Below, in pieces: positions 17,489-63,059 of a stretch of DNA of 64,000 bases. Made by a program: the position numbers and the translations under genes. The stretch spans positions 495,298-559,297 of the forward strand of contig CAZGEH010000001.1 in assembly GCA_964524795.1 (NCBI GenBank), given 5' to 3'. This stretch comes from an uncultured Acidobacteriota bacterium. GTDB lineage: Bacteria > Acidobacteriota > UBA6911 > RPQK01 > JAPXNP01. Within the stretch, counting starts at the first letter, position 1, and each line of letters begins with the position of its first letter. The notes under the pieces were generated by a model, which was not told the origin of the DNA, searched no databases, and saw only the letters and a list, made by a program, of their open reading frames with translations.

Positions 17489-18436
17489 TCAGGCTACCAG
17501 GCTGCGCACCTCATCCAGCTTGCCGGCGCTGCCCAGTTTTTCGTTCTTGTGGGCAATGAACTTCGCGTACTCATCCATGAAAATCTTTCCGGGCTTGCGC
17601 AGATCGAATTCCGCCGGGTGGTCCCGGAAGTACTCCCGGTGTACGCGACACCACACCAGCCGCCCGTCGGTGTCGATATTGACCTTGGTCACACCCAACT
17701 TGGCGGCCCGGGCGAACTGATTCTCGTCCACACCACGAGCGCCTTTCAGATTCCCGCCGGCCGCATTGATCCGAGCGACCTCTTCCTGGGGCACCGAGCT
17801 GGATCCGTGCATCACCAGCGGCAACCCAGGACACCGCTTCTGAATCTCTTCGATGACCTCAAAATGCAGCGACTGAGACCCCGAGAACTTGAACGCACCG
17901 TGGCTGGTCCCGATGGCACAGGCGAGGCTGTCGCAACCGGTCCGCTTCCAGAATTCCTCCGCTTCACGCGGGTTGGTCAGTTTGGCGTCCGACTCCTCGA
18001 CCTTCACATGCTCCTCGACTCCCCCGAGCATCCCCAGCTCGGCTTCCACAACCACTCCCCTGGCGTGGGCGTAATCCACAACACGCTTGGTGATTTCCAC
18101 ATTCTTCTCAAAGGGTTCGTGGCTGGCGTCAATCATCACCGAGCTGTAGAAGCCGCTGTCGATGCAGTCATAGCAGGTCGCTTCATCGCCGTGGTCCAGG
18201 TGCACCGCAAACACAGCCTCCGGGAAGATTTCATCCGCCGTCCGGATCATGGCCTCAAGCATCCGCTTGTCCGTATAGGAACGTGCACCCTTGGAAATCT
18301 GGATGATGAAGGGCGCCCGGCTCATGATGTTGCCCCGGAACAGGCCCATCGTCTGTTCCAGATTGTTGATGTTGTACGCGCCGACAGCGTAATTGCCGTA
18401 GGCATGTTTGAAGAGCTCTTTGGTTGTCACGATCAT
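17489..18436 (-). CDS. fba: class II fructose-bisphosphate aldolase
   Basis: Full-length match to class II FBP/tagatose-bisphosphate aldolases: GAYNINNLE, FIIQISKGA, HLDHG zinc site, GSSS...motif. 315 aa. Confidence 0.95.
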   Translation of the reverse strand: MIVTTKELFKHAYGNYAVGAYNINNLEQTMGLFRGNIMSRAPFIIQISKGARSYTDKRMLEAMIRTADEIFPEAVFAVHLDHGDEATCYDCIDSGFYSSVMIDASHEPFEKNVEITKRVVDYAHARGVVVEAELGMLGGVEEHVKVEESDAKLTNPREAEEFWKRTGCDSLACAIGTSHGAFKFSGSQSLHFEVIEEIQKRCPGLPLVMHGSSSVPQEEVARINAAGGNLKGARGVDENQFARAAKLGVTKVNIDTDGRLVWCRVHREYFRDHPAEFDLRKPGKIFMDEYAKFIAHKNEKLGSAGKLDEVRSLVA

Positions 18437-18628: not shown

Positions 18629-19744
18629 TCAGGCCAGCGGTGACGCCCCGGCGCCAGCCGCCGCGCGTGCCACCAGCTCCCGCAACCGGTCCTCCTGCTC
18701 CAGCATGCATTGAACCAGCCGGAACTGGGTCCGGCAGCGGTCCAGATTGTGGTCCTGGCGGCGAATCTTGAAATAGGTGTCACCGGCGAGGAAATCGGTC
18801 AGAAACCTGCAGCCGATGATCAGGGTGATCATCTCTCCCGCCGTCACCAGGTGATCCCGCTCGGCTGGCGTCAGGAATTCAGCCGCCTCGGAAAGGTAAC
18901 CGCGGACGAGCTGCTCATACATGTCCAGCTCCAGGGTGACGCGCGACAGGTCACGTTCATCTTCCGCCGCCCGGGAAGTGCTGGTCCGGACCATGTCGCC
19001 GAAGTCATACAACGCCAGTCCCGGCATGAGAGTGTCCAGGTCGATGACACAGATCCCTTCGCCGGTCTGGTCGTCCATCATCACGTTGTTGATCTTGGTG
19101 TCATTGTGGGTGGTTCTGACAGGTATCCTGCCGGCCTCCACCTCCCGTGGGAGCACGTCAAAGATCCAGGCGTGGCGCTGCAGAAACTCGATCTCGGCCC
19201 GCGCCTGGGCCGCCCGGTTCCGGACATCCTCGGCCAAGGCCCGTTCGAACGCCTGATAACGCCTGGGTCCGTGGTGAAAGTCCGGGATCGTCTCGTGCAG
19301 AGGCGGAGGCGGCAGATCCGCCAACATCTTCTGGAACCGCCCGAAGGCGCGGGCAGCCTGATATGCCTGTCCGGCATGCTGCAGCGCATCCCATGTCCGG
19401 GCCTGCTCGATGAAGATGTAAGCTCTCCAGTAACCGCCCTCGGGATCCCGCCAGTAGCACGCACCCTGACGGGTGGGGATCACGGTCAGCGTCCGCCGTG
19501 ACACGTCGGGAGTCCCGGCAGCCTCCAGCTTGGCGCGGATATGTCCAGTCACCCGGCAGATGTTCTCCATCAGTGACGGCGGATCGCGAAACACACGATG
19601 GTTGATCCGCTGGAACAGGTAGCGCACCGGACGGCCGCCCTGGTCCATGGTTACCGCGTAGGTGTCGTTGATGTGGCCGGTGCCATACGGAACTGCATCG
19701 ACGAAGTCCCCCAGAATGGCGAAGGCTTTGACCACCGTTTCCAT
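18629..19744 (-). CDS. nahK: N-acetylhexosamine 1-kinase-like anomeric sugar kinase (APH/choline kinase fold; NahK/AmgK family)
   Basis: Strong motif identity to Bifidobacterium NahK: GTGHINDTY (P-loop-like), catalytic HNDTKINNVMMD (NahK has HNDTKLNNILMD) and IDLDTLMPGLALYDFGD (NahK has IDLDTIMPGSMLFDFGD). 371 aa. Confidence 0.8.
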   Translation of the reverse strand: METVVKAFAILGDFVDAVPYGTGHINDTYAVTMDQGGRPVRYLFQRINHRVFRDPPSLMENICRVTGHIRAKLEAAGTPDVSRRTLTVIPTRQGACYWRDPEGGYWRAYIFIEQARTWDALQHAGQAYQAARAFGRFQKMLADLPPPPLHETIPDFHHGPRRYQAFERALAEDVRNRAAQARAEIEFLQRHAWIFDVLPREVEAGRIPVRTTHNDTKINNVMMDDQTGEGICVIDLDTLMPGLALYDFGDMVRTSTSRAAEDERDLSRVTLELDMYEQLVRGYLSEAAEFLTPAERDHLVTAGEMITLIIGCRFLTDFLAGDTYFKIRRQDHNLDRCRTQFRLVQCMLEQEDRLRELVARAAAGAGASPLA

Positions 19745-19750
19745 TCCAGC

Positions 19751-20644
19751 CTACCAAAGTCGCTCCGGGTACAACCCCTGCTTCCTCAGATTCTCAAGCT
19801 CCGCGCGAACCGCCGGTACGTCCTCGCGATAGGTGACACCGAACCACCGGTCACGGGACGGAAGCACCCGGACGACGGCTGTTCGGGCGGCGATCAGCTC
19901 ATTGACCACCGTCGGGAGGAAAAACTCCTGTTTCAGGTCATCCCCGTATCTCTCCAGAAAGTGCCGGAAAGAAGCAGCCAGCGGCTGCAAGAATTCCGGC
20001 GTGAACCCCCACAGGTTCATGGATACCAGCTCGTCACCGGACAACGGATGGGGGTGTCCTTCCTCATCGAAATACCGGGCGCTCCCCTCACCGGCAGGCT
20101 CGATGCGGGTCCGCTCCACAATGCTGAGCAGGTGCATCGACGGGTCGACGCTGCAGACCCCACGCGCCACGCTGCCGTGCGCCGACAGGGTGTTGCGAAG
20201 GCGGTACCCCACCAGGGCGTACTCGCCGGAGCCTGCCTCCAGATGGCGTGCCATCAGGGCCAGCGAGTCCCGGCCGTAGAAGTCGTCAGCATTGATGACC
20301 GCAAACGGCTCATCCAGCAGTTGGCGCGCCGTCAGCACGGCATGACCAGTTCCCCAGGGCTTGACCCGTCCGGCTGGCGGGAGCCGGCTGCCCAGTCCCA
20401 CCTCCAGCGTCTGGTCCACCAGCACGCAGGGGATCCTGCGCTGGAAACGGCAAACAAATCGGGCCTCGAAGACGTCGTGAATCTCGGGCCGTACCACAAA
20501 AACAACTCTGCCGAAGCCCGCCTCGACAGCGTCGAACACCGAGTATTCCAGGAGGGTTTCTCCGGCCGGCCCGACTCCCTCCATCTGCTTGAGACCGCCG
20601 TAACGGCTGCCGATTCCGGCCGCCATGACCAGCAATATAGGCAC
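19751..20644 (-). CDS. sugar-1-phosphate nucleotidyltransferase (MurU / GlmU-N-like NTP transferase)
   Basis: N-terminal nucleotidyltransferase signature MPILLVMAAGIGSRYGGLKQ, then a GT-A-like fold. 6 bp upstream of the kinase, so an operon. Confidence 0.8.
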   Translation of the reverse strand: MPILLVMAAGIGSRYGGLKQMEGVGPAGETLLEYSVFDAVEAGFGRVVFVVRPEIHDVFEARFVCRFQRRIPCVLVDQTLEVGLGSRLPPAGRVKPWGTGHAVLTARQLLDEPFAVINADDFYGRDSLALMARHLEAGSGEYALVGYRLRNTLSAHGSVARGVCSVDPSMHLLSIVERTRIEPAGEGSARYFDEEGHPHPLSGDELVSMNLWGFTPEFLQPLAASFRHFLERYGDDLKQEFFLPTVVNELIAARTAVVRVLPSRDRWFGVTYREDVPAVRAELENLRKQGLYPERLW

Positions 20645-20794
20645 CGCTCTCTCCTCAGGGCGGCAATATAGCAGTTCTGCGAGACTGGAACCTGCTCACC
20701 GCCGTCTCCTCCGCCTGCGGCAGCGGTCTCGGAGCAGGGCCAGGCGAACCGGTCCGGGGGACGCGCGGGACCTTTTCCTGTACGATGCACCGTC

Positions 20795-22567
20795 ATGCAG
20801 GTGCACGCACTGGACTGGGTCATCGTGGCCGTTTCGGTGGCCGTCTGCTTCATCCCGGCACTGCTGTTTACACGGAGGGCGGGCAGCAGCACGGACGAAT
20901 TCTTTGCTTCGGGCCGGGCCGCGCCCTGGTGGCTGATCGGGGTATCGATGGTCGCCACCACCTTCAGCACCGACACCCCCAACCTGGTCACGGATATCGT
21001 GCGTCAGAACGGGGTGGCCGGCAACTGGGTGTGGTGGGCCTTCCTGCTGACCGGCATGATGACGGTTTTCCTTTACGCCCGGCTGTGGCGCCGTTCCGAG
21101 GTGCTGACGGACCTGGAGTTCTACGAGATTCGCTACCGGGGCAAGGCCGCCTCGGTGGTGCGGGGCTTCCGGGCGATCTACCTCGGTCTGTTTTTCAACT
21201 GCGTGATCATGGCGACGGTCAACCTGGCCGCGGTCAAGATCGCCAACGTCATCCTCGGCTGGCCGCAGGGGCAGACCCTGATCCTCTGCGGCATTCTCAA
21301 TGTCCTGTTTGCCGCCACTTCTGGGCTGTGGGGTGTGCTGGTGATCGATCTGGTCCAGTTCGGCATCGCCATGACCGGTTCGTTCGCAGCGGCCTACTTC
21401 GCCCTGCAGCAACCGCAGGTGGGCGGCCTCGCCGGTCTGGTGGAACGGCTGCCCGCCGAGACCCTGTCATTTCTGCCCAGCTTCGGCAACTGGGAGGTGC
21501 TGTTGCCGGTCCTGATCATCCCCATCGCCGTTCAGTGGTGGTCCGTGTGGTATCCCGGGGCCGAACCGGGGGGCGGCAGCTACATCGCCCAACGCATGCT
21601 GGCGTCACGATCCGAGCGCGACGCGCTGGGGGGAACCCTCCTGTTCAACGCCGCCCACTATGCGTTACGGCCGTGGCCCTGGATCATCGTCGCCCTCAGC
21701 TCGTTGCTGGTTTACCCGGAACTGGCCGACATCCAGCGAGCGTTCCCCAATGTCGACCCCAAGCTCATCAACCACGACATGGCGTACCCGGCCATGCTCC
21801 GGTTCCTGCCGGTGGGCTTCCTCGGCATCATGATTGCCGGTCTGCTGGCCGCTTATGTCTCCACGATGATCACCCACCTGAACTGGGGAACTTCATACCT
21901 CGTCCACGACTTTTACCGCCGGTTCATCCGCAGGGAGGCGTCCGAACGCCATTACATCGTGGTAAGCCGTTTCGTCACCGCCGGGTTGATGGTCCTGGCC
22001 GGATTGCTGACCCTGGTTCTGGAATCGGCCAAAGACTCCTTCGATATCCTGCTTTCGGTGGGCGCCGGAACCGGCCTCATCTATCTGTTGCGCTGGTTCT
22101 GGTGGCGGGTCAGCGCGTGGAGTGAAATCTCCGCCATGATCTCGTCGTTCGGGATGGCGGTGGCACTGTTCCTCCTGCGCAAGAGCGGCATGGACATTCC
22201 GGCCCAATACTCGCTGCTGGTGATGATCGCGGTCACCTCAGCCGTGTGGTTGGCAACCACGTACCTGGCCCCAGCCACCGATCGCCGGACGCTGCTGGAG
22301 TTCTACCGCCTGGTCCGGCCCGCCGGCCCCGGCTGGAACTCGATCCGAAGGGAGACGGGTCTGGAGTCCTCGCGAGACAGCCTGCCGATGTCGATGCTGG
22401 GTTGGACGCTGGGAACGGCTGCGGTTTGGGCGGCGCTTTTCAGCACGGGAAGTTTCCTGTTGGGTCGCCCGGGTCCCGGCGTCGTCCTGGCCCTGGTCTG
22501 TGTGGTCAGCACAGTCTGGCTGGCACGTATCATTCCGGGACTCTGGGGCGGTTCAGAAGCCCGCTGA
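20795..22567 (+). CDS. sodium:solute symporter (SSS) family transporter
   Basis: 590 aa with about 13 predicted TM helices and an SSS-like N-terminus (LDWVIVAVSVAV...ASGRAAPWWLIGVSMVATTFSTDT). Divergent from the kinase operon. Confidence 0.85.
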   Translation: MQVHALDWVIVAVSVAVCFIPALLFTRRAGSSTDEFFASGRAAPWWLIGVSMVATTFSTDTPNLVTDIVRQNGVAGNWVWWAFLLTGMMTVFLYARLWRRSEVLTDLEFYEIRYRGKAASVVRGFRAIYLGLFFNCVIMATVNLAAVKIANVILGWPQGQTLILCGILNVLFAATSGLWGVLVIDLVQFGIAMTGSFAAAYFALQQPQVGGLAGLVERLPAETLSFLPSFGNWEVLLPVLIIPIAVQWWSVWYPGAEPGGGSYIAQRMLASRSERDALGGTLLFNAAHYALRPWPWIIVALSSLLVYPELADIQRAFPNVDPKLINHDMAYPAMLRFLPVGFLGIMIAGLLAAYVSTMITHLNWGTSYLVHDFYRRFIRREASERHYIVVSRFVTAGLMVLAGLLTLVLESAKDSFDILLSVGAGTGLIYLLRWFWWRVSAWSEISAMISSFGMAVALFLLRKSGMDIPAQYSLLVMIAVTSAVWLATTYLAPATDRRTLLEFYRLVRPAGPGWNSIRRETGLESSRDSLPMSMLGWTLGTAAVWAALFSTGSFLLGRPGPGVVLALVCVVSTVWLARIIPGLWGGSEAR

Positions 22568-22633
22568 TGGCCACGCCGCAGGCTGTGAACCCTGATGTAG
22601 TCGGCGGCCCGTCTGGAGCGGCCTTGAAGCGCT

Positions 22634-23563
22634 TTAGTGGAAACCGAAAAGTTCCTTGTCCTGGCTGAGCCGGATGAGAAAGTCTTCGGCCAGGGCGCCC
22701 ACCCCGTCCGGTTCCAGACCGACGGCCTTCCAGATCGCCTCCGCGTCCACCGTCTCCGCCACCCGCCGGACAGGGCCGATGCCCAGGCTGTGACAAAGCC
22801 AGTTCGATGCCTGCACCAGGACGGACAGCTCATGGAAAAGGACTGACCGTTCCGGCTCGTGGTGGCAGGTCACGACCTCCGCGATCGCATCCGGCAGATT
22901 CCAGGCCTCGGCCACCAGTTCGCCGGCCTCGGTGTGAGTCCAACCCAGATAGGCGCGTTCCGCCTCCAGAGTTGAAAGATCCGGGTTGGCCTCGGCACAG
23001 GCGACTGCTTCCAAAAAAGCCTGCGGAAACTGCAGATCGAACAGGATCTTGCCCACATCGTGAAGCAGGCCGGCCACAAAAGCGTCGTCGGGGTCCGCCA
23101 GCCGCGTCCGCGCCGCGATCTCGCGGGCGGCCAGAGCCGCTCCCAAGGCATGTTCCCAAAGCTGGCGCCCTTGGGGAGTCTTGCGAATCACACCGCCCAG
23201 CGAAGCAGCGATGACGACCCCCCGGATTTTCCGATTCCCCAGCAGCACGGCTGCATCACGAACGGTCCGGATCTCCCGGGTCCGCCGGAAGAAGGCGGAG
23301 TTGGCAATCCGTAGCACCCTGGCGGTCAAAGCCTGGTCGCGGGCGATCAAATCGCTGAGTTCGCCGACGCCCAGGTACAGGTCCGACGTCATCTCCAGAA
23401 TGCGCCAGGCCACTTCCGGAAGGGGAGGGAGTACATCAATATCGAGCACCGGCCGGGTGGGAACGGAGCCCGCCGGATGCAGCAAGTCGGGAGATCGCCC
23501 CATCGCGCTGTTCATGGCGCTCCCATTAGAAGACGGGCGGGCGTCGGCGGTCCGTGACGGCAC
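22634..23563 (-). CDS. HDOD domain signalling protein
   Basis: HDOD signature (LRIANSAFFRR...TVRDAAVLLG...LLHDVGKILF...CHHEPE). Abuts the upstream UroD-like gene with a 0-bp gap. The N-terminal start is uncertain. Confidence 0.75.
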   Translation of the reverse strand: MPSRTADARPSSNGSAMNSAMGRSPDLLHPAGSVPTRPVLDIDVLPPLPEVAWRILEMTSDLYLGVGELSDLIARDQALTARVLRIANSAFFRRTREIRTVRDAAVLLGNRKIRGVVIAASLGGVIRKTPQGRQLWEHALGAALAAREIAARTRLADPDDAFVAGLLHDVGKILFDLQFPQAFLEAVACAEANPDLSTLEAERAYLGWTHTEAGELVAEAWNLPDAIAEVVTCHHEPERSVLFHELSVLVQASNWLCHSLGIGPVRRVAETVDAEAIWKAVGLEPDGVGALAEDFLIRLSQDKELFGFH

Positions 23564-24574
23564 TCACCGATCTGCGGCCGCGAATTCGCGCATCGCGTTG
23601 AGGTTGGCTGCGGGAGTTCCCCGCGGGATCTCGCAGCCCGCGCCGACGATATAGCGCGGACCAGCCGCGGCAAGACAGGCCGCAAGGGCCGTCCGGATCC
23701 GCTCCGGGTTCCCGTTCAGCACCAGTTCCACCGGGTTGAGATTGCCCAGCAGAATCTGCCGGGGACCCATGGCCGCTCTGGCCTCGTGCATCGGCGAGGG
23801 GTAATCCAGATCCACGATCTCACAACCCAGAGCTCCCATGTCCGCCAGCAGCGGGCGGGTGTTGCCACAGATGTGAAGCCTCACCGGCACGCCCAACGCC
23901 TGCACGCCACGCACCAGCCGCTGCTGGAAAGGCCAGACGAAACGCCGGTAGAGAGTCGGCCCCACCAGCGACGAGGCGGCATCGCCGATCCCGATGAAGT
24001 CGGCGCCCGCTTCCACCTGGGCGGATGCAAACCGCAGCTCCATCTCCACCACGAACTCGAAAAGGGCTTCGACAAAGCCGGGATCGTCGTAGAGATCCAG
24101 CATCAGATTGTTGATCCCTCGCAGGTCGGCGCCCTCCGCACAAGGGCCTTCGATCCATCCTTCCACCAGACGGCGGTCACCCGCCTCCCGACGCAGCAAG
24201 GAGATGCCCCGCAGCCGGTCCGACATCCGGGGCGACTGGTGCGGATCCGGGATCTGCAAAGAATCCAGCCGTGACTTCACCAGGAGGAGGGCCCTCGATT
24301 CATCGATGGCGGGCGGCTGGTCATCAAAGAAGTCCACCGCCGCACCGCAGTCGGCGGCCTCTCGCGCCGGATCCGAAATCACCGACACATAGTCAATGTC
24401 GAAACGCTCTGCGGTCACCTGCTGTGCCTCGGCCAACACACGGTAGTCGGTCACATATTCCCGATAACTGGCGCCGATCTGATCGGCGGCGAACATCATG
24501 GTGATGGGCATGAAGGGCCGCCGATCTACCGGACGGTTCTGCAGAAAGTCGAGAATCCGCTCCCTTCCCGTCAT
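23564..24574 (-). CDS. uroporphyrinogen decarboxylase (URO-D/MtaA-like) family protein
   Basis: 336 aa TIM-barrel protein with URO-D family features (MTGRERILDFLQNRPVDRRP..., ICGNTRPLL, GAGCEIP). Confidence 0.75.
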   Translation of the reverse strand: MTGRERILDFLQNRPVDRRPFMPITMMFAADQIGASYREYVTDYRVLAEAQQVTAERFDIDYVSVISDPAREAADCGAAVDFFDDQPPAIDESRALLLVKSRLDSLQIPDPHQSPRMSDRLRGISLLRREAGDRRLVEGWIEGPCAEGADLRGINNLMLDLYDDPGFVEALFEFVVEMELRFASAQVEAGADFIGIGDAASSLVGPTLYRRFVWPFQQRLVRGVQALGVPVRLHICGNTRPLLADMGALGCEIVDLDYPSPMHEARAAMGPRQILLGNLNPVELVLNGNPERIRTALAACLAAAGPRYIVGAGCEIPRGTPAANLNAMREFAAADR

Positions 24575-24714
24575 TCAGGCAATCCTCCTTCCGGGCCAAG
24601 GATGCCCCCACCCCGGGGTGGAAACAAGGCGCTGCGGGCAATCCTGCCAAGCCCGGCAGGTTCCTGCCGCAGTCTGCCGCCAGGCGGGAGGAAAAACGGA
24701 CCTATAATGAAGCC

Positions 24715-25788
24715 ATGGGCCTTGGCTATCCCGCCCGCTATTGGCACGGGCTGGAGGACGGGCGAATCCAGTGTGACCTGTGCCCCCGGTTTTGCCGCCT
24801 CCACGAAGGGCAGCGGGGACTGTGTTTCGTCCGCATGCGGGAAGGGGACAGTCTGGTCCTGACCACTTATGGCAGGTCCAGCGGTTTCTGCATCGACCCC
24901 ATTGAGAAGAAACCCCTCAACCACTTCCTTCCCGGCACTCCGGTTCTCTCGTTCGGGACCGCCGGCTGCAACCTGACCTGTCGCTTCTGCCAAAACTGGG
25001 ACATCAGCAAGTCCCGGGAGATCGACACTCTGGCGGACGCCGCGTCTCCGGAAGCAATCGCCGAGGCGGCGGTGCGCACGGGATGCCGGAGCGTTGCGTA
25101 CACGTACAACGACCCGGTGATCTTTCTGGAATATGCCGTGGACGTGGCCCGCGCGTGTCGGGAACGGGGGATCTTCAATGTGGCGGTCACAGCGGGCTAC
25201 ATCTCGCCGGAACCGCGTCGCGAATTGTTCCGGTGGATGGACGCTGCCAATGTGGACCTCAAAGCCTTCAGCGAGGACTTTTACCGGAATCTCTGCACCG
25301 GCTCGCTGCAGCCAGTTCTGGACACCTTGGTCTACCTTCGTCGCGAGACGCGCGTGTGGTTCGAGATCACCACTCTGCTGATTCCGGGTGAGAATGACTC
25401 CGAAGGCGAAATCGATGCGCTGACGCGGTGGGTTGTCCGCGAACTGGGGCCGGACGTACCGTTGCATTTCACGGCGTTCCACCCGGACTGGAAGATGCTG
25501 GACCATCCCCCGACTCCACCCCAGACCCTGGCTCGTGCGAGGCGGATCGGACTGGCCAACGGTCTGCGTTATGTCTACACCGGAAACATCCACGACGTGG
25601 AAGGACAGAGTACCTGGTGCCACCACTGCGGAAAGCTGCTGATCGAACGCGACTGGTACCGTCTCGGTGCCTGGAACCTGTCGCCGGAAGGCGCCTGCGC
25701 TTTCTGCGGAACCCCCTGTGCAGGACGTTTCGAGGCGGTCCCAGGCACTTGGGGTGCCCGCCGGCAGAGAGTCAGGTTGACCGCTTGA
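24715..25788 (+). CDS. AmmeMemoRadiSam-system radical SAM enzyme (PFL-activase-like)
   Basis: CxxxCxxC cluster (CNLTCRFCQNW) preceded by an N-terminal Cys-rich stretch (CDLCPRFCRL...GLCFVR). Overall length and motif order are as in TIGR04337-type enzymes. 357 aa. Confidence 0.85.
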   Translation: MGLGYPARYWHGLEDGRIQCDLCPRFCRLHEGQRGLCFVRMREGDSLVLTTYGRSSGFCIDPIEKKPLNHFLPGTPVLSFGTAGCNLTCRFCQNWDISKSREIDTLADAASPEAIAEAAVRTGCRSVAYTYNDPVIFLEYAVDVARACRERGIFNVAVTAGYISPEPRRELFRWMDAANVDLKAFSEDFYRNLCTGSLQPVLDTLVYLRRETRVWFEITTLLIPGENDSEGEIDALTRWVVRELGPDVPLHFTAFHPDWKMLDHPPTPPQTLARARRIGLANGLRYVYTGNIHDVEGQSTWCHHCGKLLIERDWYRLGAWNLSPEGACAFCGTPCAGRFEAVPGTWGARRQRVRLTA

Positions 25789-39251: not shown

Positions 39252-41270
39252 TCACTTGCCGGACAAAGAAGCCCTTAGTGTCTCGAGTTTCCTCCGGACC
39301 CGTTCGGACTCCTCTTCCTTCTCGGCATGCCGGATCGACAGCTCGTAGCACCGGCGGGCTTCCTCCGCATTCCCTTTGCGGGCATAGAGGTCGCCGAGAT
39401 GCTCCAGGATGACAGGGTCGGTCCGCTGCAGGCGAACCGCCTTCTTCAGGTGGAGCTCCGCATTGACCAGATCGTCCTGCTTGAAATAGACCCAGCCAAG
39501 GCTGTCCTGGTAGGCGCCGTTGTACGGATCCAGCTCCACCGCCCGGAGAAGATACTGGCGGGCCTCTTCCAGGCGGACACCGCGGTCCGCCAGCATATAG
39601 CCCAGGTAGTTGAGCACGTCGGCCTGGTCCGGGTTTCGCCGGAGGATGTCCAGAAACTGGCGTTCGGCGGCTTCGTAATCTTTCAGCCGCTCCAGAACCG
39701 CTCCCATCTGGAACTGAAGCTGTTCACTGTCGGGAAACCGGGTCAAAGCCGAACGCACGACTTCCTGGGCCCTCTCGAACCGGTCCCGCGCCAGATACAG
39801 TTGGCTGGCGGCCAAAAGGAGAGCCTCAGGTTCCTCGGCGTCGACCGCCGCTTCCCGCAGAAACCGGACGCCGTCGTCCACCCGGCCGTCCGCCGCCAGC
39901 GCCTGGCCTCGAGCGATCAGAACATAAGTGTTCCTCGGGGCTTCCTTCAGCAGTTCATCCGACAACTGCTTCAGCTCGTCCACGCGACCGGCCCGCTGGA
40001 GGGTATAGAAGAGGCGAAGGCGTCCGTCGAGATCGTCGCCTCCCAGCTCCCGCGCTTCTTTCAACAAGGCGATGGCTTCGTCGAAGCGCCCTTCTTCCTC
40101 CCGGATCAGGGCGAGGTTGGTGAGGAAGATGCCACGATAGGGTTTCACGGCAGGCCGCGAGGATTGGAGCATCTCCTCGATCCGTTGGGCGGCCTTCTCC
40201 CGCTCGCCCATCATCAGCATCACGCTGGTGTACTCGTAATTGACGTGCACACTGTCGGGGTCGGCGGCCAGCAGCGATTCCAGCAACTCGGCAGCCTCGG
40301 CGAGACGGCGTCCCTGGCGGTAGGCCCGGGCCAAATCCAGCTTGAGTTCCGGCTGCGAAGGATGGATCTGCACCAGCCGCTGCAGGAAATCGATGGACTC
40401 CTCTCCCCGCCCCAGGGCCACCAGAGTCCGGGCCAGTCCTTCGTTCAGCCTGGGATCAGGACCGTGCGCCAATCCCCGGCGATAGACTTCCTCGGCCTGT
40501 TCCAGCTCGCCCCGGCTGCGGTATAACCCGGCCAGCATCAGAATGTACTCCGGGATGTCGTCCCGGATCTTGAGCCCCTCCCGGAGAATCGCGATCGCCT
40601 CTTCAATCCGGTTGAGCTCCACCAGGGCCTGCGCCTCGAAGTAATACCCCTTGATCGAGGAGGGGCTGGCTTGCCGGAGCTGACGGAACAGTTCTGCGGC
40701 ACGGGCGTATCTCCCGCTCTGGAAATGGAGATCGGCCGCATACTGCAGAGCTTCCAGGTTGGACGGATCGAGAGTCAGCACCGATTCGAACTCGGCGAGA
40801 GACTTCTCTCTCATGTTCGGCTGCTCCCGCGAGCTGTAGTAGATCCGTCCCAGCAGCAGGAGGGGCTCCGGATCCCCCGGATCCATCTCGACCGCCTCGC
40901 GGCACACCTCGACCGCCCGGGCGATCTCGCCCGCCTGCAGGAGCAGCTCGGCCACCCGGGTGCGCAAACCTGCGTCCCGCGCTCTCATCTTCAGCACGGC
41001 TTCGCACTGCTCGACGGCCCGGTTGTTCTCACCCGCCTGCAGCAGGGTATCCGCGAATTCCAGCCGCAGATCCACACTGGACGGATTCAGTTCCAGGGCC
41101 TTGCGGTACTCCGCCACCGCCTCCGGGAATTCATCCCGAAACTGCAGCAGCTTCGCCCTTGAAAAGTGATAGTAGGACTGGGCGAGGTCCGAGGACTGCG
41201 CCGGCGCCCGGAGAGCACACAACGCCATCCCCATCATCACTCCCAAGACCCACTTGAGCGGCTGCCTCAT
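39252..41270 (-). CDS. secreted tetratricopeptide-repeat protein
   Basis: Signal peptide (MRQPLKWVLGVMMGMALCALRAPAQS) followed by about 16 TPR units across 672 aa. Confidence 0.85.
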   Translation of the reverse strand: MRQPLKWVLGVMMGMALCALRAPAQSSDLAQSYYHFSRAKLLQFRDEFPEAVAEYRKALELNPSSVDLRLEFADTLLQAGENNRAVEQCEAVLKMRARDAGLRTRVAELLLQAGEIARAVEVCREAVEMDPGDPEPLLLLGRIYYSSREQPNMREKSLAEFESVLTLDPSNLEALQYAADLHFQSGRYARAAELFRQLRQASPSSIKGYYFEAQALVELNRIEEAIAILREGLKIRDDIPEYILMLAGLYRSRGELEQAEEVYRRGLAHGPDPRLNEGLARTLVALGRGEESIDFLQRLVQIHPSQPELKLDLARAYRQGRRLAEAAELLESLLAADPDSVHVNYEYTSVMLMMGEREKAAQRIEEMLQSSRPAVKPYRGIFLTNLALIREEEGRFDEAIALLKEARELGGDDLDGRLRLFYTLQRAGRVDELKQLSDELLKEAPRNTYVLIARGQALAADGRVDDGVRFLREAAVDAEEPEALLLAASQLYLARDRFERAQEVVRSALTRFPDSEQLQFQMGAVLERLKDYEAAERQFLDILRRNPDQADVLNYLGYMLADRGVRLEEARQYLLRAVELDPYNGAYQDSLGWVYFKQDDLVNAELHLKKAVRLQRTDPVILEHLGDLYARKGNAEEARRCYELSIRHAEKEEESERVRRKLETLRASLSGK

Positions 41271-44044
41271 TGCGCTCCCACTGCCGAAACAAACTGGAGA
41301 TTGTCGGCGAAAAACAGCTCGATCCCCGCCAGCGGCTGGTCGGATCGGACGCGGAGATAGCCTCCCACCTGGGCAGGGAGGTCGGGAAACAGGTCGATCA
41401 GCAGGGAGGTCAGCCGCTGTCCGGGTTCCAGGAACGCATCGCGGGCACGGACCGTCTCGCCGTCGCTCTTGTGCACCTCGATGGTTAGCTGGGCCGGTTC
41501 ATCCCCCGGATTGACCAATGCCAGGCCCGTGGAAAGCCCCAACCCCTGAGCCACGTGCGAAAAGACCAGATCCTCGGACAGGCTCCACGACAACGGCAGG
41601 CTGGTCATCGCCTTTCCCTGGAAAAGCTGGATCTCCGCGCTGCCTACCAGGCCCGGCTTGTCCGATTCCGCCACCAGCCAGCCCCCGATGGCGGTCCCGG
41701 GGTCCTGGAGCCCGAACCATTCCTGGATGCTCCGGCGCAGCGAGACCCCGGCCCCCAGCTCTACCGTCACCGGGGCGGCCAGGGCCGCTCCCTCGTCATC
41801 CAGCAGGGTCAGGGTCACCTGGATCGGGATCTCGACGGTGGTGTCCTGGTCATTCTGCTTGCGGGGATTGGAGTTCACCAGCTTGAGAAAGGTGTCCGCC
41901 CCCCCGAAGACCGCCACCTGGGGCACCAGCAGCCGCGTGGGTTGCGGGTCTCGGACAGACACGGGGGTCCCCAACAGGGACGACATGCGTTCGCCGTCGA
42001 AGTAACGGGCATAAGCGACCACACCGGTGGCGGTGTTCACCACCAGGTAGCCGTCCACCCAATTCTGGAAGGCGCTTTCCGGAAACAGCGCGATGTTTTG
42101 TTGGTCGTTGGGATCAGGGTCCCGGACGGGGGCTGAGTACAGGCTGCGGGCGGGGACCTGCCGGTTGAAGGTACCCAGTACCTTGCCGTCCTGGCCCACC
42201 AGGTTAACTGTGTAGTTCGCCGTCTGCCGGTTGGGATTGAGCACCGTCAACTCGGTGACCATGCCGCCGGTAACCCGGGCTTCGGGAACCACCACCTTTT
42301 GCGATGTCACACCCGTCGCCACTGTCCCGTCCAGACGTTTGAGGTTGTGGTCACCCGTCAGAAAAAAGCTCTTCAGAGCCGGCTGGTCCGAATCCAGATC
42401 GAACCATCCCTCCACTTTCGCCCCGCCGGCTGCCACAATGATCTCCTCGCTGGTCCGGGCCAGTTGCGCCCCTGGGGCCAAAGTAATTATCCGTGGGTTC
42501 ACAAACTCCACCACGTCGGTGGTGTCTGACTTGTCGGCAAACTGGATTCCGGTGTTGGAGAGACCGGTGACGATGACTTCGGCCGCTTCCGTCGAGGCGT
42601 TGGTCAGAGCGATGCCGGTGAAGAGGCTGGAATCGGAAGCCGCCCGGGGTACGAACCAGTAGTCTGTCCTGCGGACCAGATCAATAGTGTTGGCATTGAA
42701 GTTCAGCACTACCAGCACACTCTGGTCCGGGGTGTAGGCCAACTGCAGCGGTGCGGAGGAAATCTTGGAGCCGCCCCGGTCGACCTGACCGCCAATCTCC
42801 ACAAAGCGGGGGAACTCGTCGGTGAGGAGGTTGAAGACCATCAATGTGTCGCTGAGCGGCGCCGCCACGTACATCCAGCGTCCGTCGGGCGAGAAAACCG
42901 GCCGCGAACGGGGCCGGAATTCGCTGCGCAGGGGCAGCAGCCGCCGCGCCTCGGCGGCACCCGGTTCGATGACGGCGAATTCCAGCGCCGACATGACCAC
43001 AAATCGGCCCGAGGGAGCCCAGTAGCTGGCAGTGGCGACGCCCCCCACGTTGTATTTCTTGAATTCGCCCTTGGTGAAGTCGATGAGCCAGGCACGGTCG
43101 GTCGACAGCTCCGGTATCAGCGCCGCACCGCTGAAGGTCTGGTCGGCAATCATGCCGTACTTGCCATCGGCGGAAATCGCCACCGTCGTGGTGGCCGTGA
43201 AATCATGGATGATCGGCTCTTCCGTCACCCCGGGGCCCGTCCGGGGGGCCAGCGTCCGCACGATCTGGAAGGAGACCGGGTCGACGATGGCCACCGCATC
43301 GGGGTGCTCCAGCCGGTTCAGGTTGGTGGATCCCACCAGCACCACCGTCATGAAACTGAAGTCCGGGGCCATGGTCATGGAGGTAGGCCGGCTGCCGGGG
43401 GTGAACTTGAGCCGCGGGCCGACCTCCGTCATCGTGTCCACGTCGAAGCGGATGAGCTCGTCGGTGGCGGCGGAAGCGACGAAACCGGTCTTGCCGTCGG
43501 CCGAGAACAGGATATTGTTGGCAAACGAAAGGAAAACCTCCGTCAAGTCCAGGCGGCGCACGGCGTGGGTCGCCGCATCGATCATGGCGATGGTCGCGAC
43601 CTGTTCTCCGAGAAAGTTGCGTCCGGATTCAGGCAGATTCCGCAAAAGCTCCAGGCACACCACGCCGAAGGCACTGCCGTCGGGCGTCATCGTGATCTGG
43701 GACGGGTTCTTGCCTACCGTGATCAGATCGAGGATTTCGCCAGTCTTGGGGTTGAAGGCGAGGACCTTGTCCGAGCCGCTGAAGCTGACGAAGGCCTTGC
43801 TGGAATCGGCCGTGAATTCGATGTTGGGAGCGAAGTTCAGGTCGACCGTCGAGGTGGAACTGCGGCTGATGCCACCCGACTCCACCACTCCCGGGCCCAC
43901 GGGGACCAGGTTCACATCGAACTTCAGTTTGTCGTCCAGCTTGGCGGGCTCGATGGTCTTGAACCTCCGCTGAGCCTGGGCTGCTCCGCAGACCGCAAGC
44001 AGAACCACCGGGATGGCGATCCAACGACGAACCAGACGCACCAT
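41267..44044 (-). CDS. secreted YVTN-type beta-propeller repeat protein with C-terminal domain of unknown function
   Basis: Signal peptide MVRLVRRWIAIPVVLLAVCGAAQAQ. Repeated YVTN-like units (ITMTPDGS, FSADGKTGFVAS, AISADGKYGMIAD, VFSPDGRWMYVAA). About 925 aa. 4-bp overlap with the downstream TPR gene. Confidence 0.7.
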   Translation of the reverse strand: MVRLVRRWIAIPVVLLAVCGAAQAQRRFKTIEPAKLDDKLKFDVNLVPVGPGVVESGGISRSSTSTVDLNFAPNIEFTADSSKAFVSFSGSDKVLAFNPKTGEILDLITVGKNPSQITMTPDGSAFGVVCLELLRNLPESGRNFLGEQVATIAMIDAATHAVRRLDLTEVFLSFANNILFSADGKTGFVASAATDELIRFDVDTMTEVGPRLKFTPGSRPTSMTMAPDFSFMTVVLVGSTNLNRLEHPDAVAIVDPVSFQIVRTLAPRTGPGVTEEPIIHDFTATTTVAISADGKYGMIADQTFSGAALIPELSTDRAWLIDFTKGEFKKYNVGGVATASYWAPSGRFVVMSALEFAVIEPGAAEARRLLPLRSEFRPRSRPVFSPDGRWMYVAAPLSDTLMVFNLLTDEFPRFVEIGGQVDRGGSKISSAPLQLAYTPDQSVLVVLNFNANTIDLVRRTDYWFVPRAASDSSLFTGIALTNASTEAAEVIVTGLSNTGIQFADKSDTTDVVEFVNPRIITLAPGAQLARTSEEIIVAAGGAKVEGWFDLDSDQPALKSFFLTGDHNLKRLDGTVATGVTSQKVVVPEARVTGGMVTELTVLNPNRQTANYTVNLVGQDGKVLGTFNRQVPARSLYSAPVRDPDPNDQQNIALFPESAFQNWVDGYLVVNTATGVVAYARYFDGERMSSLLGTPVSVRDPQPTRLLVPQVAVFGGADTFLKLVNSNPRKQNDQDTTVEIPIQVTLTLLDDEGAALAAPVTVELGAGVSLRRSIQEWFGLQDPGTAIGGWLVAESDKPGLVGSAEIQLFQGKAMTSLPLSWSLSEDLVFSHVAQGLGLSTGLALVNPGDEPAQLTIEVHKSDGETVRARDAFLEPGQRLTSLLIDLFPDLPAQVGGYLRVRSDQPLAGIELFFADNLQFVSAVGAQ

Positions 44045-44119
44045 AGAAAGGTCATTATACGGCTTCATAGAATTCCCGCGACCCGCCCCCCCACACCTCC
44101 CCCGAAGGCAAGGATCGAT

Positions 44120-62219: not shown

Positions 62220-63059
62220 ATGGCTGTACCGCAGGAGCTGATCCGCAGCATCGGGCATCTTGCCCCCATGCCGGTCACCGCCCAACGCATCCTTTCAGTC
62301 CTCAATGATGAGGACGTGTCGCTGGCGGAGATCGCCGCCATCGTCGAATATGACGAGGCCCTGGTCGCGAACACGCTGCGGGTGGCCAATTCGGTTTTCC
62401 ATTCCCGCAGCCGGCCGGTGACCACCATCCGGGCCGCAGTGGTCCGCCTGGGCTCGACCAACCTCTTCAATCTGATCCTGGGCCGGCATCTGCGGTCCCT
62501 CGCGACAGCAGCGCCACTGTACGATCTCAGCGAAAACGACCTTTGGATGCATTCCGCGGTGGCGGCGCTTGCCGCCGAGGAGATCATGACGGTGTCCGTG
62601 GCCGAGATCCCCCAGCTCACAAAAATCGCGGCCCTGGTGCATGACGTCGGCAAGCTCATCATGGTGCGTTACTTTAAGTGCGACTTCCGGGGGGTGCTGG
62701 AACGGGCAGACCGCTGCGGGACCAGTTTCGTGGAGGCGGAGCGCGAGCTGCTGGGCTGCGATCACGCAGAAGTGGGGGCCGCGGTGGCTCGCCAGTGGGG
62801 ATTCCCGGAGCCGGTAACGTACGCCATCGAGTACCACCACTCGCCTGCCCCGGAACCCAGCTCCGTCCTCGACGTCGTGATCATGGCCAACCTCGTGGCC
62901 AAGACCCTGGCCACCGGGCTGGGAGCGGAAGGTATGAACTTCACCGTGGATGAAGGATGCCGCAAACGGCTGCAACTGGACTTCAACAGCTTCTGCCGGA
63001 TCTGCGCGAGGGTTGAGGAGGGGATGCACCAAGTGAAATCCCTTTACGGTGTTGCCTGA
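62220..63059 (+). CDS. HDOD domain signalling protein
   Basis: HDOD motifs LRVANSVFHSR, AVVRLGSTNL, ALVHDVGKLIM, YHHSPAPE. 279 aa. Confidence 0.8.
   Translation: MAVPQELIRSIGHLAPMPVTAQRILSVLNDEDVSLAEIAAIVEYDEALVANTLRVANSVFHSRSRPVTTIRAAVVRLGSTNLFNLILGRHLRSLATAAPLYDLSENDLWMHSAVAALAAEEIMTVSVAEIPQLTKIAALVHDVGKLIMVRYFKCDFRGVLERADRCGTSFVEAERELLGCDHAEVGAAVARQWGFPEPVTYAIEYHHSPAPEPSSVLDVVIMANLVAKTLATGLGAEGMNFTVDEGCRKRLQLDFNSFCRICARVEEGMHQVKSLYGVA

What the first reader, a model, noticed from the sequence alone, without database searches (positions are those of the whole stretch)
18629..22567. NahK-like anomeric HexNAc kinase + sugar-1-P nucleotidyltransferase operon with divergent SSS transporter: a two-step UDP-HexNAc salvage/recycling shunt
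The kinase (18629-19744) has near-identical catalytic motifs to Bifidobacterium N-acetylhexosamine 1-kinase. It sits 6 bp downstream of an NTP-transferase with the MurU/GlmU-N signature, mirroring the AmgK-MurU peptidoglycan-recycling bypass and the NahK plus uridylyltransferase route. A sodium:solute symporter is transcribed divergently and fba lies downstream. Together this suggests uptake and direct anomeric phosphorylation of GlcNAc/GalNAc (or MurNAc) and activation to a UDP-sugar that bypasses GlmS/GlmM/GlmU. Such a shunt is not well documented in this kind of GC-rich soil lineage.
Basis: partly seen in the sequence, partly recalled or inferred. Interest (0 to 1): 0.55.

Follow-up and report, generated by a model that had tools for sequence, protein, structure and literature searches.

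The report
Sugar kinase, nucleotidyltransferase and transporter module
An Acidobacteriota genome fragment carries a sugar importer next to two co-transcribed enzymes that most likely turn scavenged N-acetylhexosamine into an activated nucleotide sugar. The gene pair is common across bacteria and easy to predict, but nobody appears to have tested it in the lab.

Summary
The kinase (18629-19744, -) lies 6 nt downstream of a nucleotidyltransferase, NTT (19751-20644, -). A sodium:solute symporter, SSS (20795-22567, +), is transcribed divergently 150 nt away.

- **Kinase:** a clear NahK-family member. It is 41.6% identical to B. longum NahK over the full length, its model superposes at TM 0.90-0.94, and it has every family-conserved residue.
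- **NTT:** a sugar-1-phosphate NTT, but not MurU- or GlmU-like. It belongs to the uncharacterised 3PNN family; its nearest characterised relatives are GalU and RmlA.
- **Coupling:** the NTT-then-kinase order recurs in at least five phyla, often with overlapping stop and start codons. Single-chain NTT-kinase fusions also exist.
- **Transporter:** SSS orthologues (59-71% identical) repeatedly sit beside an NTT plus an anomeric kinase of either kinase type, and beside GH109 or NamZ hydrolases. The transporter link therefore looks real.
- **fba:** incidental.

The best reading is uptake, C1-phosphorylation and nucleotidylation of GlcNAc/GalNAc to UDP-HexNAc. The sugar and the nucleotide are inferred, not shown. 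This is an ordinary member of a very large, unstudied module: a new variant of a known kind of salvage pathway, of moderate interest.

The parts
19751..20644 (-). Sugar-1-phosphate nucleotidyltransferase of the 3PNN family (297 aa). First gene of the pair; predicted to convert NTP plus sugar-1-P into NDP-sugar plus PPi.
   Evidence: PDB 3pnn_A E = 5e-89; the next hits are only GalU/YngB-type enzymes. AF2 model pLDDT 92.5. Foldseek gives 3pnn TM 0.94, then RmlA/GalU/GlgC at TM 0.53-0.66. Pfam NTP_transferase and NTP_transf_3 score below their cut-offs. No MurU hit.
18629..19744 (-). NahK-family anomeric sugar kinase (371 aa). Second gene of the pair; predicted to make N-acetylhexosamine 1-phosphate from ATP and HexNAc.
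   Evidence: The only PDB sequence hits are NahK, at E = 1.6e-78 over the full length. Identity is 41.6%. AF2 model pLDDT 93.1, TM 0.90-0.94 to NahK; the next fold is homoserine kinase at E = 1e-11. All 40 columns that are at least 95% conserved across the family are identical in the window protein and in NahK.
19745..19750 (-). 6-nt spacer between the NTT stop (TAG) and the kinase ATG, implying co-transcription and probably translational coupling.
   Evidence: Sequence read. Other lineages show 4-10 nt overlaps at the same junction.
20645..20794 (.). 150-nt divergent intergenic region between the NTT-kinase pair and the SSS gene. Presumably holds both promoters.
   Evidence: Sequence read. 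No sigma-70-like site, operator-like palindrome or Rfam element was found there, so any regulatory role is inferred only.
20795..22567 (+). Sodium:solute symporter (590 aa) of a highly conserved SGLT-like subfamily. Probable importer of the sugar handled by the pair.
   Evidence: Pfam SSF 74 bits. vSGLT E = 1.2e-24. Orthologues at 59-71% identity lie next to an NTT plus an anomeric kinase (GHMP or NahK type), GH109, or NagB-like/FGGY/NamZ genes in 31 of 64 loci with usable flanks.

Best explanation
This is a three-gene scavenging module for an N-acetylhexosamine, GlcNAc and/or GalNAc. The SSS symporter imports the free sugar. The NahK-family kinase phosphorylates its anomeric C1-OH with ATP. 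The co-translated 3PNN-family nucleotidyltransferase condenses the sugar-1-phosphate with an NTP, most likely UTP, to give UDP-HexNAc plus PPi. That product can enter envelope glycan synthesis without GlmS, GlmM or GlmU.

Shown here: gene order and spacing, family membership of all three proteins, conservation and fusion of the NTT-kinase pair, and the recurrent link between the transporter family and NTT-plus-anomeric-kinase modules.

Inferred: the identity of the sugar, the nucleotide, and whether the product is used anabolically.
For: **Kinase is NahK family**
- E = 1.6e-78 and 41.6% identity.
- TM 0.90-0.94 and rmsd about 2 A.
- The catalytic D208 loop, the D228 metal site and all 40 family-invariant columns are shared with NahK.
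- B. longum NahK nests inside the family tree.

**NTT is a sugar-1-P nucleotidyltransferase**
- It has the RmlA/GalU fold.
- All of its distant characterised sequence relatives are UTP-glucose-1-P uridylyltransferases.

**The two enzymes are coupled**
- An NTT lies directly upstream of the kinase in 16 of 53 genome loci.
- The same is seen in Acidobacteriota, Verrucomicrobiota, Sumerlaeota, Bacteroidota (Hymenobacter) and other long contigs.
- Three independent single-chain NTT-kinase fusions exist: P0365, P0447 and P0497.

**The sugar class is an amino sugar**
Neighbours of the pair or of the kinase elsewhere are:
- NagB, a PIG-L deacetylase and an MFS transporter
- a ROK protein
- GalE-like epimerases
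- two PGM/PMM genes
- a NagB-PIG-L fusion and a NagA-like amidohydrolase
- GH109

**The transporter belongs to the module**
- SSS orthologues sit next to a different NTT plus a GalK/GALK2-like GHMP kinase in 21 of 64 loci.
- They sit next to NahK-type pairs in other arrangements in L079, L099 and L105.
- They sit next to GH109 in 8 loci.
- Other lineages place an ABC or MFS sugar transporter at the same position.
Against: - No enzyme of this NTT family has been characterised. 3PNN is a structural-genomics entry with no paper found.
- The uracil-binding Gln of GlmU and RmlA is not obviously present in the RxKPWGTGHA motif, so UTP is only the default guess.
- At 41.6% identity to NahK, the sugar specificity could differ.
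- In the window itself there is no NagA, NagB, GalE or hexosaminidase.
- The NTT also occurs without the kinase in Parabacteroides and Ruminococcus albus, so it is not dedicated to this kinase.
- A 78%-identical relative (L064) has an inversion that separates the two genes.
- Half of the SSS orthologue loci show none of the linked genes.
Confidence: 0.6

Rival explanations
1. The same enzymes serve a catabolic, Leloir-like (pyrophosphorylase-type) route. GalNAc goes to GalNAc-1-P, then UDP-GalNAc, then UDP-GlcNAc via an epimerase. It then goes back to GlcNAc-1-P, on to GlcNAc-6-P, and through NagA and NagB into glycolysis. The module would then feed carbon metabolism rather than envelope synthesis.
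For: GalE-like epimerases, PGM/PMM mutases, NagB and PIG-L deacetylases lie next to the pair in other genomes. NahK itself works in the catabolic GNB/LNB pathway (PMC8106489). fba lies downstream in the window.
Against: None of these catabolic partners is in the window. fba is not conserved next to the pair. This reading does not exclude salvage, because the first two steps are identical.
Confidence: 0.2
2. The NTT is a general UDP-sugar pyrophosphorylase, like the predicted 'GalY' replacement of GalT. The kinase would act on a neutral hexose such as galactose rather than an N-acetylhexosamine.
For: Ravcheev and Thiele predicted a PF00483 NTT (Amuc_0031, 'GalY') that clusters with galE in genomes lacking galT (PMC5583593). 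The 3PNN-type NTT stands alone in Bacteroidales and R. albus. Its nearest characterised relatives act on glucose-1-P.
Against: I could not test whether GalY and the 3PNN family are the same, because no Amuc_0031 sequence was available. The kinase shares every conserved residue with NahK, and the neighbours of its relatives are amino-sugar genes.
Confidence: 0.1
3. This is an AmgK/MurU-type peptidoglycan recycling bypass. MurNAc would go to MurNAc-1-P and then UDP-MurNAc, giving independence from MurA/MurB and tolerance to fosfomycin.
For: The logic is the same: an APH-fold anomeric kinase next to an NTT (PMC5371407, PMC10941766). NamZ, an exo-MurNAc-ase family, lies near SSS orthologues in Aminicenantes. 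RodA and a PBP lie near one Clostridia pair. T. forsythia MurT is a sodium-symporter-superfamily MurNAc importer (PMC5790795).
Against: The NTT does not hit the NCBIfam MurU model at E <= 0.01, and the family profile finds no MurU structure at E <= 10. The kinase is clearly NahK-like. P. gingivalis, the source of 3PNN, is reported to lack AmgK (PMC7670621).
Confidence: 0.07
4. This is a non-sugar kinase and cytidylyltransferase pair, such as LicA/LicC for choline, or an antibiotic phosphotransferase.
For: Pfam places the kinase only in the generic APH family. Source annotations call its relatives aminoglycoside phosphotransferases.
Against: Choline and aminoglycoside kinases match only at TM about 0.5 and E >= 1e-8, against 1e-30 for NahK. 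There is no Choline_kinase Pfam hit. The NTT has the long RmlA/GalU-type architecture.
Confidence: 0.02

Closest known systems
NahK (LnpB), N-acetylhexosamine 1-kinase of Bifidobacterium longum, in the GNB/LNB pathway
   Same: Same protein family and fold, the same catalytic and family-conserved residues, and probably the same chemistry: ATP-dependent phosphorylation of the anomeric OH of GlcNAc or GalNAc.
   Different: In bifidobacteria the next step is a GalT-type UDP-glucose-hexose-1-P uridylyltransferase, within a phosphorylase/ABC/GalE cluster (PMC8106489). Here the partner is a pyrophosphorylase-type NTT, and none of the GNB/LNB genes is present.
AmgK-MurU of Pseudomonas, the MurNAc/GlcNAc anomeric kinase and MurNAc-1-P uridylyltransferase
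   Same: The same two-step logic and adjacent genes: an APH-fold anomeric kinase followed by an NTT, bypassing de novo nucleotide-sugar synthesis.
   Different: The NTT is not a MurU family member and is about 75 residues longer. The kinase is NahK-like. The gene order is NTT first. MurNAc specificity is not supported.
PDB 3PNN, 'conserved domain protein' of Porphyromonas gingivalis W83
   Same: 49-52% identical over the full length, TM 0.94. It belongs to the same NTT family.
   Different: It is a structural-genomics deposit, with no function assigned and no paper found. Its genomic context was not examined here.
Human GALK2 and AGX1/UAP1 GalNAc salvage, and Bacteroides FKP, a bifunctional fucokinase/GDP-fucose pyrophosphorylase (both from my own knowledge)
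   Same: Kinase-plus-pyrophosphorylase salvage of a free sugar to its nucleotide sugar. As with FKP, some relatives of this pair are fused into one chain. A GALK2-like GHMP kinase replaces the NahK-like kinase next to orthologous SSS genes.
   Different: The protein families differ: a GHMP kinase and a UDPGP- or FKP-type pyrophosphorylase.
'GalY' (Amuc_0031), predicted non-orthologous replacement of GalT (PMC5583593)
   Same: An uncharacterised PF00483-type NTT that clusters with galE. 3PNN-type NTTs also neighbour GalE-like epimerases.
   Different: Identity with the 3PNN family was not tested. GalY was proposed for galactose-1-P, with no kinase partner noted.
vSGLT (Vibrio Na+/galactose symporter) and T. 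forsythia MurT (MurNAc importer of the sodium symporter superfamily)
   Same: The window transporter is an SSS-family protein whose best solved relative is vSGLT, at E = 1.2e-24. Precedent exists for amino-sugar uptake by this superfamily (PMC5790795).
   Different: The relationship to vSGLT is only distant. The relationship to MurT was not testable. The substrate is unknown.

Membership tests
NahK (N-acetylhexosamine 1-kinase) family | Full-length sequence and fold similarity to solved NahK | tested here: met
   E = 1.6e-78, residues 6-360 aligned to 13-353. Identity 41.6%. AF2 model TM 0.90-0.94, rmsd 1.9-2.5 A.
NahK (N-acetylhexosamine 1-kinase) family | Catalytic loop HNDTKxNN (D208 base) and metal-binding IDLD (D228), together with the conserved core of the family | tested here: met
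   The motifs are identical. All 40 columns at least 95% conserved in 138 family representatives are identical in the window protein and in NahK, including positions 31-32, 208, 210, 213, 228, 254, 306 and 317. The sugar-binding role of some of these positions comes from my memory of the NahK structure papers and was not verified.
NahK (N-acetylhexosamine 1-kinase) family | Phosphorylates GlcNAc or GalNAc at C1 | not testable with these tools
   Needs an enzyme assay.
GNB/LNB pathway cluster (lnpABCD) | Kinase clustered with a GH112 phosphorylase, a GalT-type uridylyltransferase, GalE and an ABC importer | tested here: not met
   The window neighbours are the NTT, SSS, fba, HDOD, URO-D-like and CHRD genes. 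None of the pathway genes occurs in the 64 kb.
AmgK-MurU recycling pair | NTT is a MurU orthologue | tested here: not met
   NCBIfam holds a MurU equivalog (NF045761, seen). The window NTT did not match it at E <= 0.01. The family profile found no MurU chain at E <= 10.
AmgK-MurU recycling pair | Kinase is an AmgK orthologue | tested here: inconclusive
   No AmgK sequence or structure was available to compare. The kinase hits only NahK in the PDB and no NCBIfam model.
AmgK-MurU recycling pair | Adjacent, co-directional kinase and NTT genes | tested here: met
   6-nt spacing on the same strand, with the NTT first.
GlmU N-terminal uridylyltransferase domain | Reaches GlmU model scores | tested here: not met
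   The best GlmU-type scores are 15-25 bits against cut-offs of 292-505. A profile search finds no GlmU structure.
Sugar-1-phosphate nucleotidyltransferase superfamily (RmlA/GalU fold) | N-terminal GxG(T/S)R...K motif and the Rossmann-like NTT fold with a sugar-binding subdomain | tested here: met
   AAGIGSRYGGLKQ at residues 8-20, invariant R14, K19 and Q20. Foldseek probability 1.0 to RmlA, GalU and GlgC at TM 0.53-0.66. Pfam scores are below cut-off, so this is a divergent family.
3PNN family of nucleotidyltransferases (uncharacterised) | Full-length similarity to 3pnn_A | tested here: met
   E = 5e-89, residues 2-296 aligned to 6-302. TM 0.94.
Sodium:solute symporter family (TC 2.A.21) | Matches the SSF model over the transporter core | tested here: met
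   PF00474 74.3 bits against a cut-off of 22.8, residues 36-447. vSGLT E = 1.2e-24. No NCBIfam equivalog is reached, so the substrate is undefined.
LicA/LicC-type choline kinase and cytidylyltransferase | Kinase matches the choline/ethanolamine kinase family | tested here: not met
   No PF01633 hit. Choline kinases match only at TM about 0.5 and E >= 2e-8.

The most novel reading that the evidence does not exclude
The window may show one form of a phylum-spanning, unrecognised amino-sugar scavenging system. In it, a strongly conserved SSS importer (59-71% identity across orthologous metagenome and MAG loci, some named Blastocatellia, Gemmatimonadota or Ca. Saccharicenans) feeds interchangeable modules of an anomeric kinase plus a nucleotidyltransferase. 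The kinase is NahK-like with a 3PNN-type NTT, sometimes fused into one chain, or GALK2-like GHMP with a second NTT type. The system is often paired with GH109 alpha-N-acetylgalactosaminidase-family enzymes. It would give soil and sediment bacteria a route to UDP-GalNAc or UDP-GlcNAc that is independent of GlmS, GlmM and GlmU. It would also assign a first function to the 3PNN NTT family and to this SSS subfamily.
Probability: 0.4. Interest if true: 0.6.

Novelty: new variant of a known kind. Interest (0 to 1): 0.42.

Why it matters
If correct, two very large and generically annotated protein families would gain a concrete function. These are the 'aminoglycoside phosphotransferase family protein' and 'sugar phosphate nucleotidyltransferase' families, each with more than 8000 clusters at 90% identity, plus a highly conserved transporter subfamily. 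It would also mean that many soil, sediment and gut bacteria can turn scavenged GlcNAc or GalNAc directly into nucleotide sugars. That bears on necromass and amino-sugar turnover in soil, on metabolic glycan labelling of uncultured bacteria with azido-HexNAc probes, and on sourcing new enzymes for one-pot UDP-HexNAc synthesis. For this particular window, the locus is an ordinary member of that module.

Tried and rejected
1. **AmgK and MurU sequences.** I looked for them in the supplement of the Legionella paper, but no supplement is held. PMC9464701 is not held either. No direct alignment with AmgK was therefore possible.
2. **NahK sugar-binding residues.** I searched the literature for a list of them and found no open text. 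I used family-wide conservation instead.
3. **Prior description of the pair.** I searched for 3PNN, for NahK with nucleotidyltransferase, for 'anomeric kinase' with operon, for GH109 with GalNAc salvage, and for NahK in Acidobacteria, Planctomycetes and Verrucomicrobia. None described the pair. The only related prediction is 'GalY'.
4. **Regulatory signals.** I looked for promoter, terminator, palindrome and Rfam signals around the genes and found nothing beyond chance.
5. **fba as part of the operon.** Rejected. The downstream gene differs in every other lineage examined.
6. **The SSS as mere lineage synteny.** I considered this after finding no SSS in 53 kinase loci. I rejected it after sampling SSS orthologues directly.
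7. **GH109, GalK-like or second-type NTT genes in the window.** None is present.
8. **Gene calling.** My crude longest-ORF calling in high-GC loci was unreliable. I replaced it with tblastn panels and the precomputed gene calls.

Full report
**1. Observation**

- fba, 17489-18436 (-)
- an APH-fold kinase, 18629-19744 (-), 371 aa
- a nucleotidyltransferase (NTT), 19751-20644 (-), 297 aa
- a sodium:solute symporter (SSS), 20795-22567 (+), 590 aa

The NTT stop and the kinase ATG are 6 nt apart. The NTT and SSS starts diverge across 150 nt. fba begins 192 nt after the kinase stop.

Codon-position GC is typical of real genes: GC3 is 0.77-0.84 against GC2 of 0.44-0.48. Identical proteins are called on six public contigs, including a 310.7-kb JGI metagenome contig. 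Proteins 89-96% identical are named as coming from Acidobacteriota MAGs. The rest of the window is ordinary chromosome: DnaB, a RadA-like ATPase, an H+-pyrophosphatase, PRPP synthetase and polyphosphate kinase.

**2. The kinase**

Pfam gives only the generic APH family, and NCBIfam gives nothing. Against all PDB sequences, the only matches at E <= 1 are the three NahK sequences. They match at E = 1.6e-78 over residues 6-360, with 142 of 341 aligned positions identical, or 41.6%.

An AlphaFold model (pLDDT 93.1) superposes on NahK at TM 0.90-0.94 and rmsd 1.9-2.5 A. The next folds are far behind: homoserine kinase at E = 1e-11, and choline, ethanolamine and aminoglycoside kinases at E >= 2e-8 and TM about 0.5.

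The family is large, with 2602 representatives of 50%-identity clusters at E <= 1e-30. I aligned 138 of these with the window protein and NahK. All 40 columns that are at least 95% conserved carry the same residue in both. They include the HNDTK catalytic loop (D208, K210, N213), the IDLD metal site (D228), and E254, R306 and Y317. My memory of the NahK structure papers assigns sugar contacts to some of these positions, but I could not verify that.

In a neighbour-joining tree, B. longum NahK nests inside the family rather than outside it. The kinase is therefore a NahK-family member. Its exact sugar preference is inferred.

**3. The nucleotidyltransferase**

Pfam NTP_transferase and NTP_transf_3 score below their cut-offs. 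GlmU models score 15-25 bits against cut-offs of 292-505. NCBIfam does contain a MurU equivalog (seen), and it was not matched at E <= 0.01.

The one close solved relative is 3pnn_A, at E = 5e-89. It is an uncharacterised 'conserved domain protein' of Porphyromonas gingivalis, and I found no paper on it. A profile built from 34 family members finds 3PNN at 9e-130. After that come only GalU/YngB-type UTP-glucose-1-P uridylyltransferases, at 3e-8 to 1e-3. No MurU or GlmU chain appears even at E <= 10.

The AlphaFold model (pLDDT 92.5) matches 3PNN at TM 0.94 and RmlA, GalU and GlgC at TM 0.53-0.66. It is therefore a true sugar-1-phosphate NTT from a distinct, unstudied family. UTP is the likeliest nucleotide by analogy only. 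The family motif RxKPWGTGHA lacks an obvious counterpart of the uracil- or thymine-binding Gln of GlmU and RmlA. That point rests on my own knowledge of those enzymes.

**4. Are the two enzymes a unit?**

Yes. The evidence comes from four directions.
- **From the kinase side.** A 3PNN-type NTT lies immediately upstream of the kinase, on the same strand, in 16 of 53 genome loci. A degenerate fragment is present in one more.
- **On long contigs.** The same order occurs on long contigs of relatives 60-67% identical to the window kinase (L059, L061 and a Sumerlaeota MAG, L062). Stop and start codons often overlap by 4 nt.
- **From the NTT side.** Both contigs sampled, an Acidobacteria-like 4.2-Mb contig and a Verrucomicrobiae MAG, have the kinase overlapping the NTT stop. 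So does the cultured Hymenobacter tibetensis.
- **Across the kinase tree.** NTT-linked kinases fall in at least three separate clades.

The strongest evidence is three independent cluster representatives that are single chains: P0365 (668 aa), P0447 (664 aa) and P0497 (690 aa). Of the two checked by BLASTP, the N-terminal halves of P0365 and P0497 are 41-43% identical to the window NTT over its full length. All three have NTP-transferase Pfam hits at the N-terminus, and their C-terminal halves are NahK-like. Such fusions argue for consecutive steps in one pathway.

There are limits. The NTT also occurs without the kinase in Parabacteroides distasonis and Ruminococcus albus 7. Many kinases lack an adjacent NTT. 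In a 78%-identical relative (L064), a four-gene inversion has split the pair while keeping the divergent NTT-SSS arrangement.

**5. Which sugar?**

The evidence is contextual. Genes next to the pair, or next to the kinase, in other genomes include:
- an MFS sugar transporter, a PIG-L deacetylase, NagB and a GalE-like epimerase (L061)
- a ROK protein and an epimerase (L062)
- two PGM/PMM mutases (L059)
- a GalE-like epimerase directly upstream in Pseudoflavonifractor (L043)
- a NagB-PIG-L fusion (L046) and a NagA-like amidohydrolase (L009)
- in Hymenobacter, the run LacI, NTT, kinase, CBM9, GH109

From my own knowledge of CAZy, GH109 is the alpha-N-acetylgalactosaminidase family. All of this points to GlcNAc and GalNAc, the two substrates of NahK (PMC8106489). 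None of these partner genes is in the window itself.

**6. The transporter**

At first the SSS looked like lineage synteny only, because none of the 53 kinase loci had one. Sampling the SSS family directly changed that view.

The protein belongs to an unusually conserved subfamily. Orthologous loci from metagenomes and MAGs are 59-71% identical over the full length; source names include Blastocatellia, Gemmatimonadota and Candidatus Saccharicenans. Its best solved relative is the Na+/galactose symporter vSGLT, at E = 1.2e-24.

I examined 64 orthologue loci with at least 2 kb of flank:
- 21 have a different NTT directly downstream. It is 28% identical to the window NTT and is nearly always followed by a GalK/GALK2-like GHMP anomeric kinase.
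- 8 have a GH109 gene alongside.
- 5 have NagB-like, FGGY-kinase and NamZ genes.
- 2 have a NahK-like kinase plus a 3PNN-type NTT from a different clade, in a convergent arrangement (L079 and L099).
- 33 show none of these.

L105 shows NTT and SSS in tandem inside an ECF-sigma, FecR and TonB-receptor cluster.

The same importer family is thus repeatedly joined to an NTT plus an anomeric kinase, using two non-homologous kinases and three gene arrangements. Other lineages put an ABC or MFS sugar transporter at the equivalent position. Precedent for amino-sugar uptake by this superfamily exists in T. forsythia MurT (PMC5790795).

**7. What is not part of it**

fba is not conserved downstream of the pair in any other lineage. 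The HDOD and URO-D/MtaA-like genes travel with the SSS only in close relatives. I found no promoter, terminator, operator-like repeat or Rfam element in the region beyond chance.

**8. Mechanism and rivals**

*Best reading (confidence 0.6).* The SSS imports GlcNAc or GalNAc. The kinase makes HexNAc-alpha-1-P. The translationally coupled NTT makes UDP-HexNAc, bypassing GlmS, GlmM and GlmU.

*Rivals:*
- A Leloir-like catabolic use of the same two steps (0.2). This is not mutually exclusive with salvage.
- A neutral-hexose or 'GalY' reading (0.1; PMC5583593).
- An AmgK/MurU-type MurNAc bypass (0.07). It is weakened because the NTT fails the MurU tests and the kinase is NahK-like.
- A non-sugar substrate (0.02). 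This is effectively refuted.

**9. Comparison with known systems, and novelty**

The logic of a kinase followed by a pyrophosphorylase is well known. Examples are AmgK/MurU (PMC5371407), human GALK2/AGX1 and Bacteroides FKP; the last two come from my own knowledge. The kinase is a new member of the NahK family.

What differs is the partner. It is a pyrophosphorylase-type NTT from a family with no characterised member, instead of the GalT of the bifidobacterial pathway. There is also a dedicated SSS importer.

I found no paper describing this native pairing in ten full-text searches. The library lacks most subscription journals, so prior work cannot be excluded.

The module is extremely common, and a specialist would find it predictable. 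This window adds no unusual feature. I rate it a new variant of a known kind, with moderate interest (0.42).

Noticed in passing
P0365, P0447, P0497 (proteins): Natural single-chain fusions of a 3PNN-type nucleotidyltransferase (N-terminal) with a NahK-like kinase (C-terminal), 664-690 aa. They form a bifunctional architecture like FKP.
   Followed up: yes
P0428 and P0421 (Pfam): Two other fusions of the NahK-like kinase. One has an N-terminal ROK sugar-kinase domain (689 aa). The other has a PglD-like hexapeptide acetyltransferase domain (541 aa). Both hint at further amino-sugar processing variants.
   Followed up: partly
L066:6001-9942 and about 20 further loci among L069-L132: Orthologues of the window SSS form an apparent operon with a second type of NTT (268 aa) and a 445-aa GalK/GALK2-like GHMP kinase, often with a GH109 gene just upstream. 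This may be a GalNAc release, uptake and activation cluster. I found no description of it.
   Followed up: partly
L067, L071, L072, L076 (Aminicenantes / Saccharicenans-like): The same SSS family sits between a NagB-like (Glucosamine_iso) gene and an FGGY kinase, with a NamZ (exo-beta-N-acetylmuramidase family) gene nearby. In that lineage this suggests a 6-phosphorylating catabolic route for a cell-wall amino sugar.
   Followed up: no
L149:3955-5982 and L003:3025-5055: A conserved 675-aa protein lies directly upstream of the NTT-kinase pair in two Acidobacteria loci. The two copies are 72% identical to each other. It has no Pfam, NCBIfam or PDB sequence match. It contains an FLFDDGWDN motif that recalls clan GH-D glycosidases; that resemblance is from memory and was not tested.
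   Followed up: partly
L064 (78%-identical kinase relative) compared with window 19751-24574: An inversion of the four-gene block URO-D-like, HDOD, SSS and NTT has a breakpoint exactly between the NTT and the kinase. It splits the operon but keeps both genes within 4 kb.
   Followed up: yes
L153 (Hymenobacter tibetensis plasmid NZ_CP094671) and L046: A roughly 210-aa CBM9_2 protein immediately follows the NahK-like kinase in two Bacteroidota loci. In Hymenobacter a GH109 gene comes next, and LacI-type regulators flank the cluster.
   Followed up: partly
L105:103-8053: A 3PNN-type NTT and an SSS orthologue are embedded between an ECF sigma factor, a FecR anti-sigma factor and a SusC-like TonB-dependent receptor. 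This is a PUL-like layout.
   Followed up: partly
window 23564-25788: An MtaA/CmuA-like (URO-D family) methyltransferase homologue lies next to an HDOD protein and opposite a radical SAM gene. A second HDOD paralogue is at 62220-63059, 34% identical over 190 aa.
   Followed up: no
window 41267-44068 (-): A 933-aa ORF with strong coding signal (GC3 0.81) has no Pfam match. It overlaps the stop of a 672-aa TPR protein by 4 nt.
   Followed up: no
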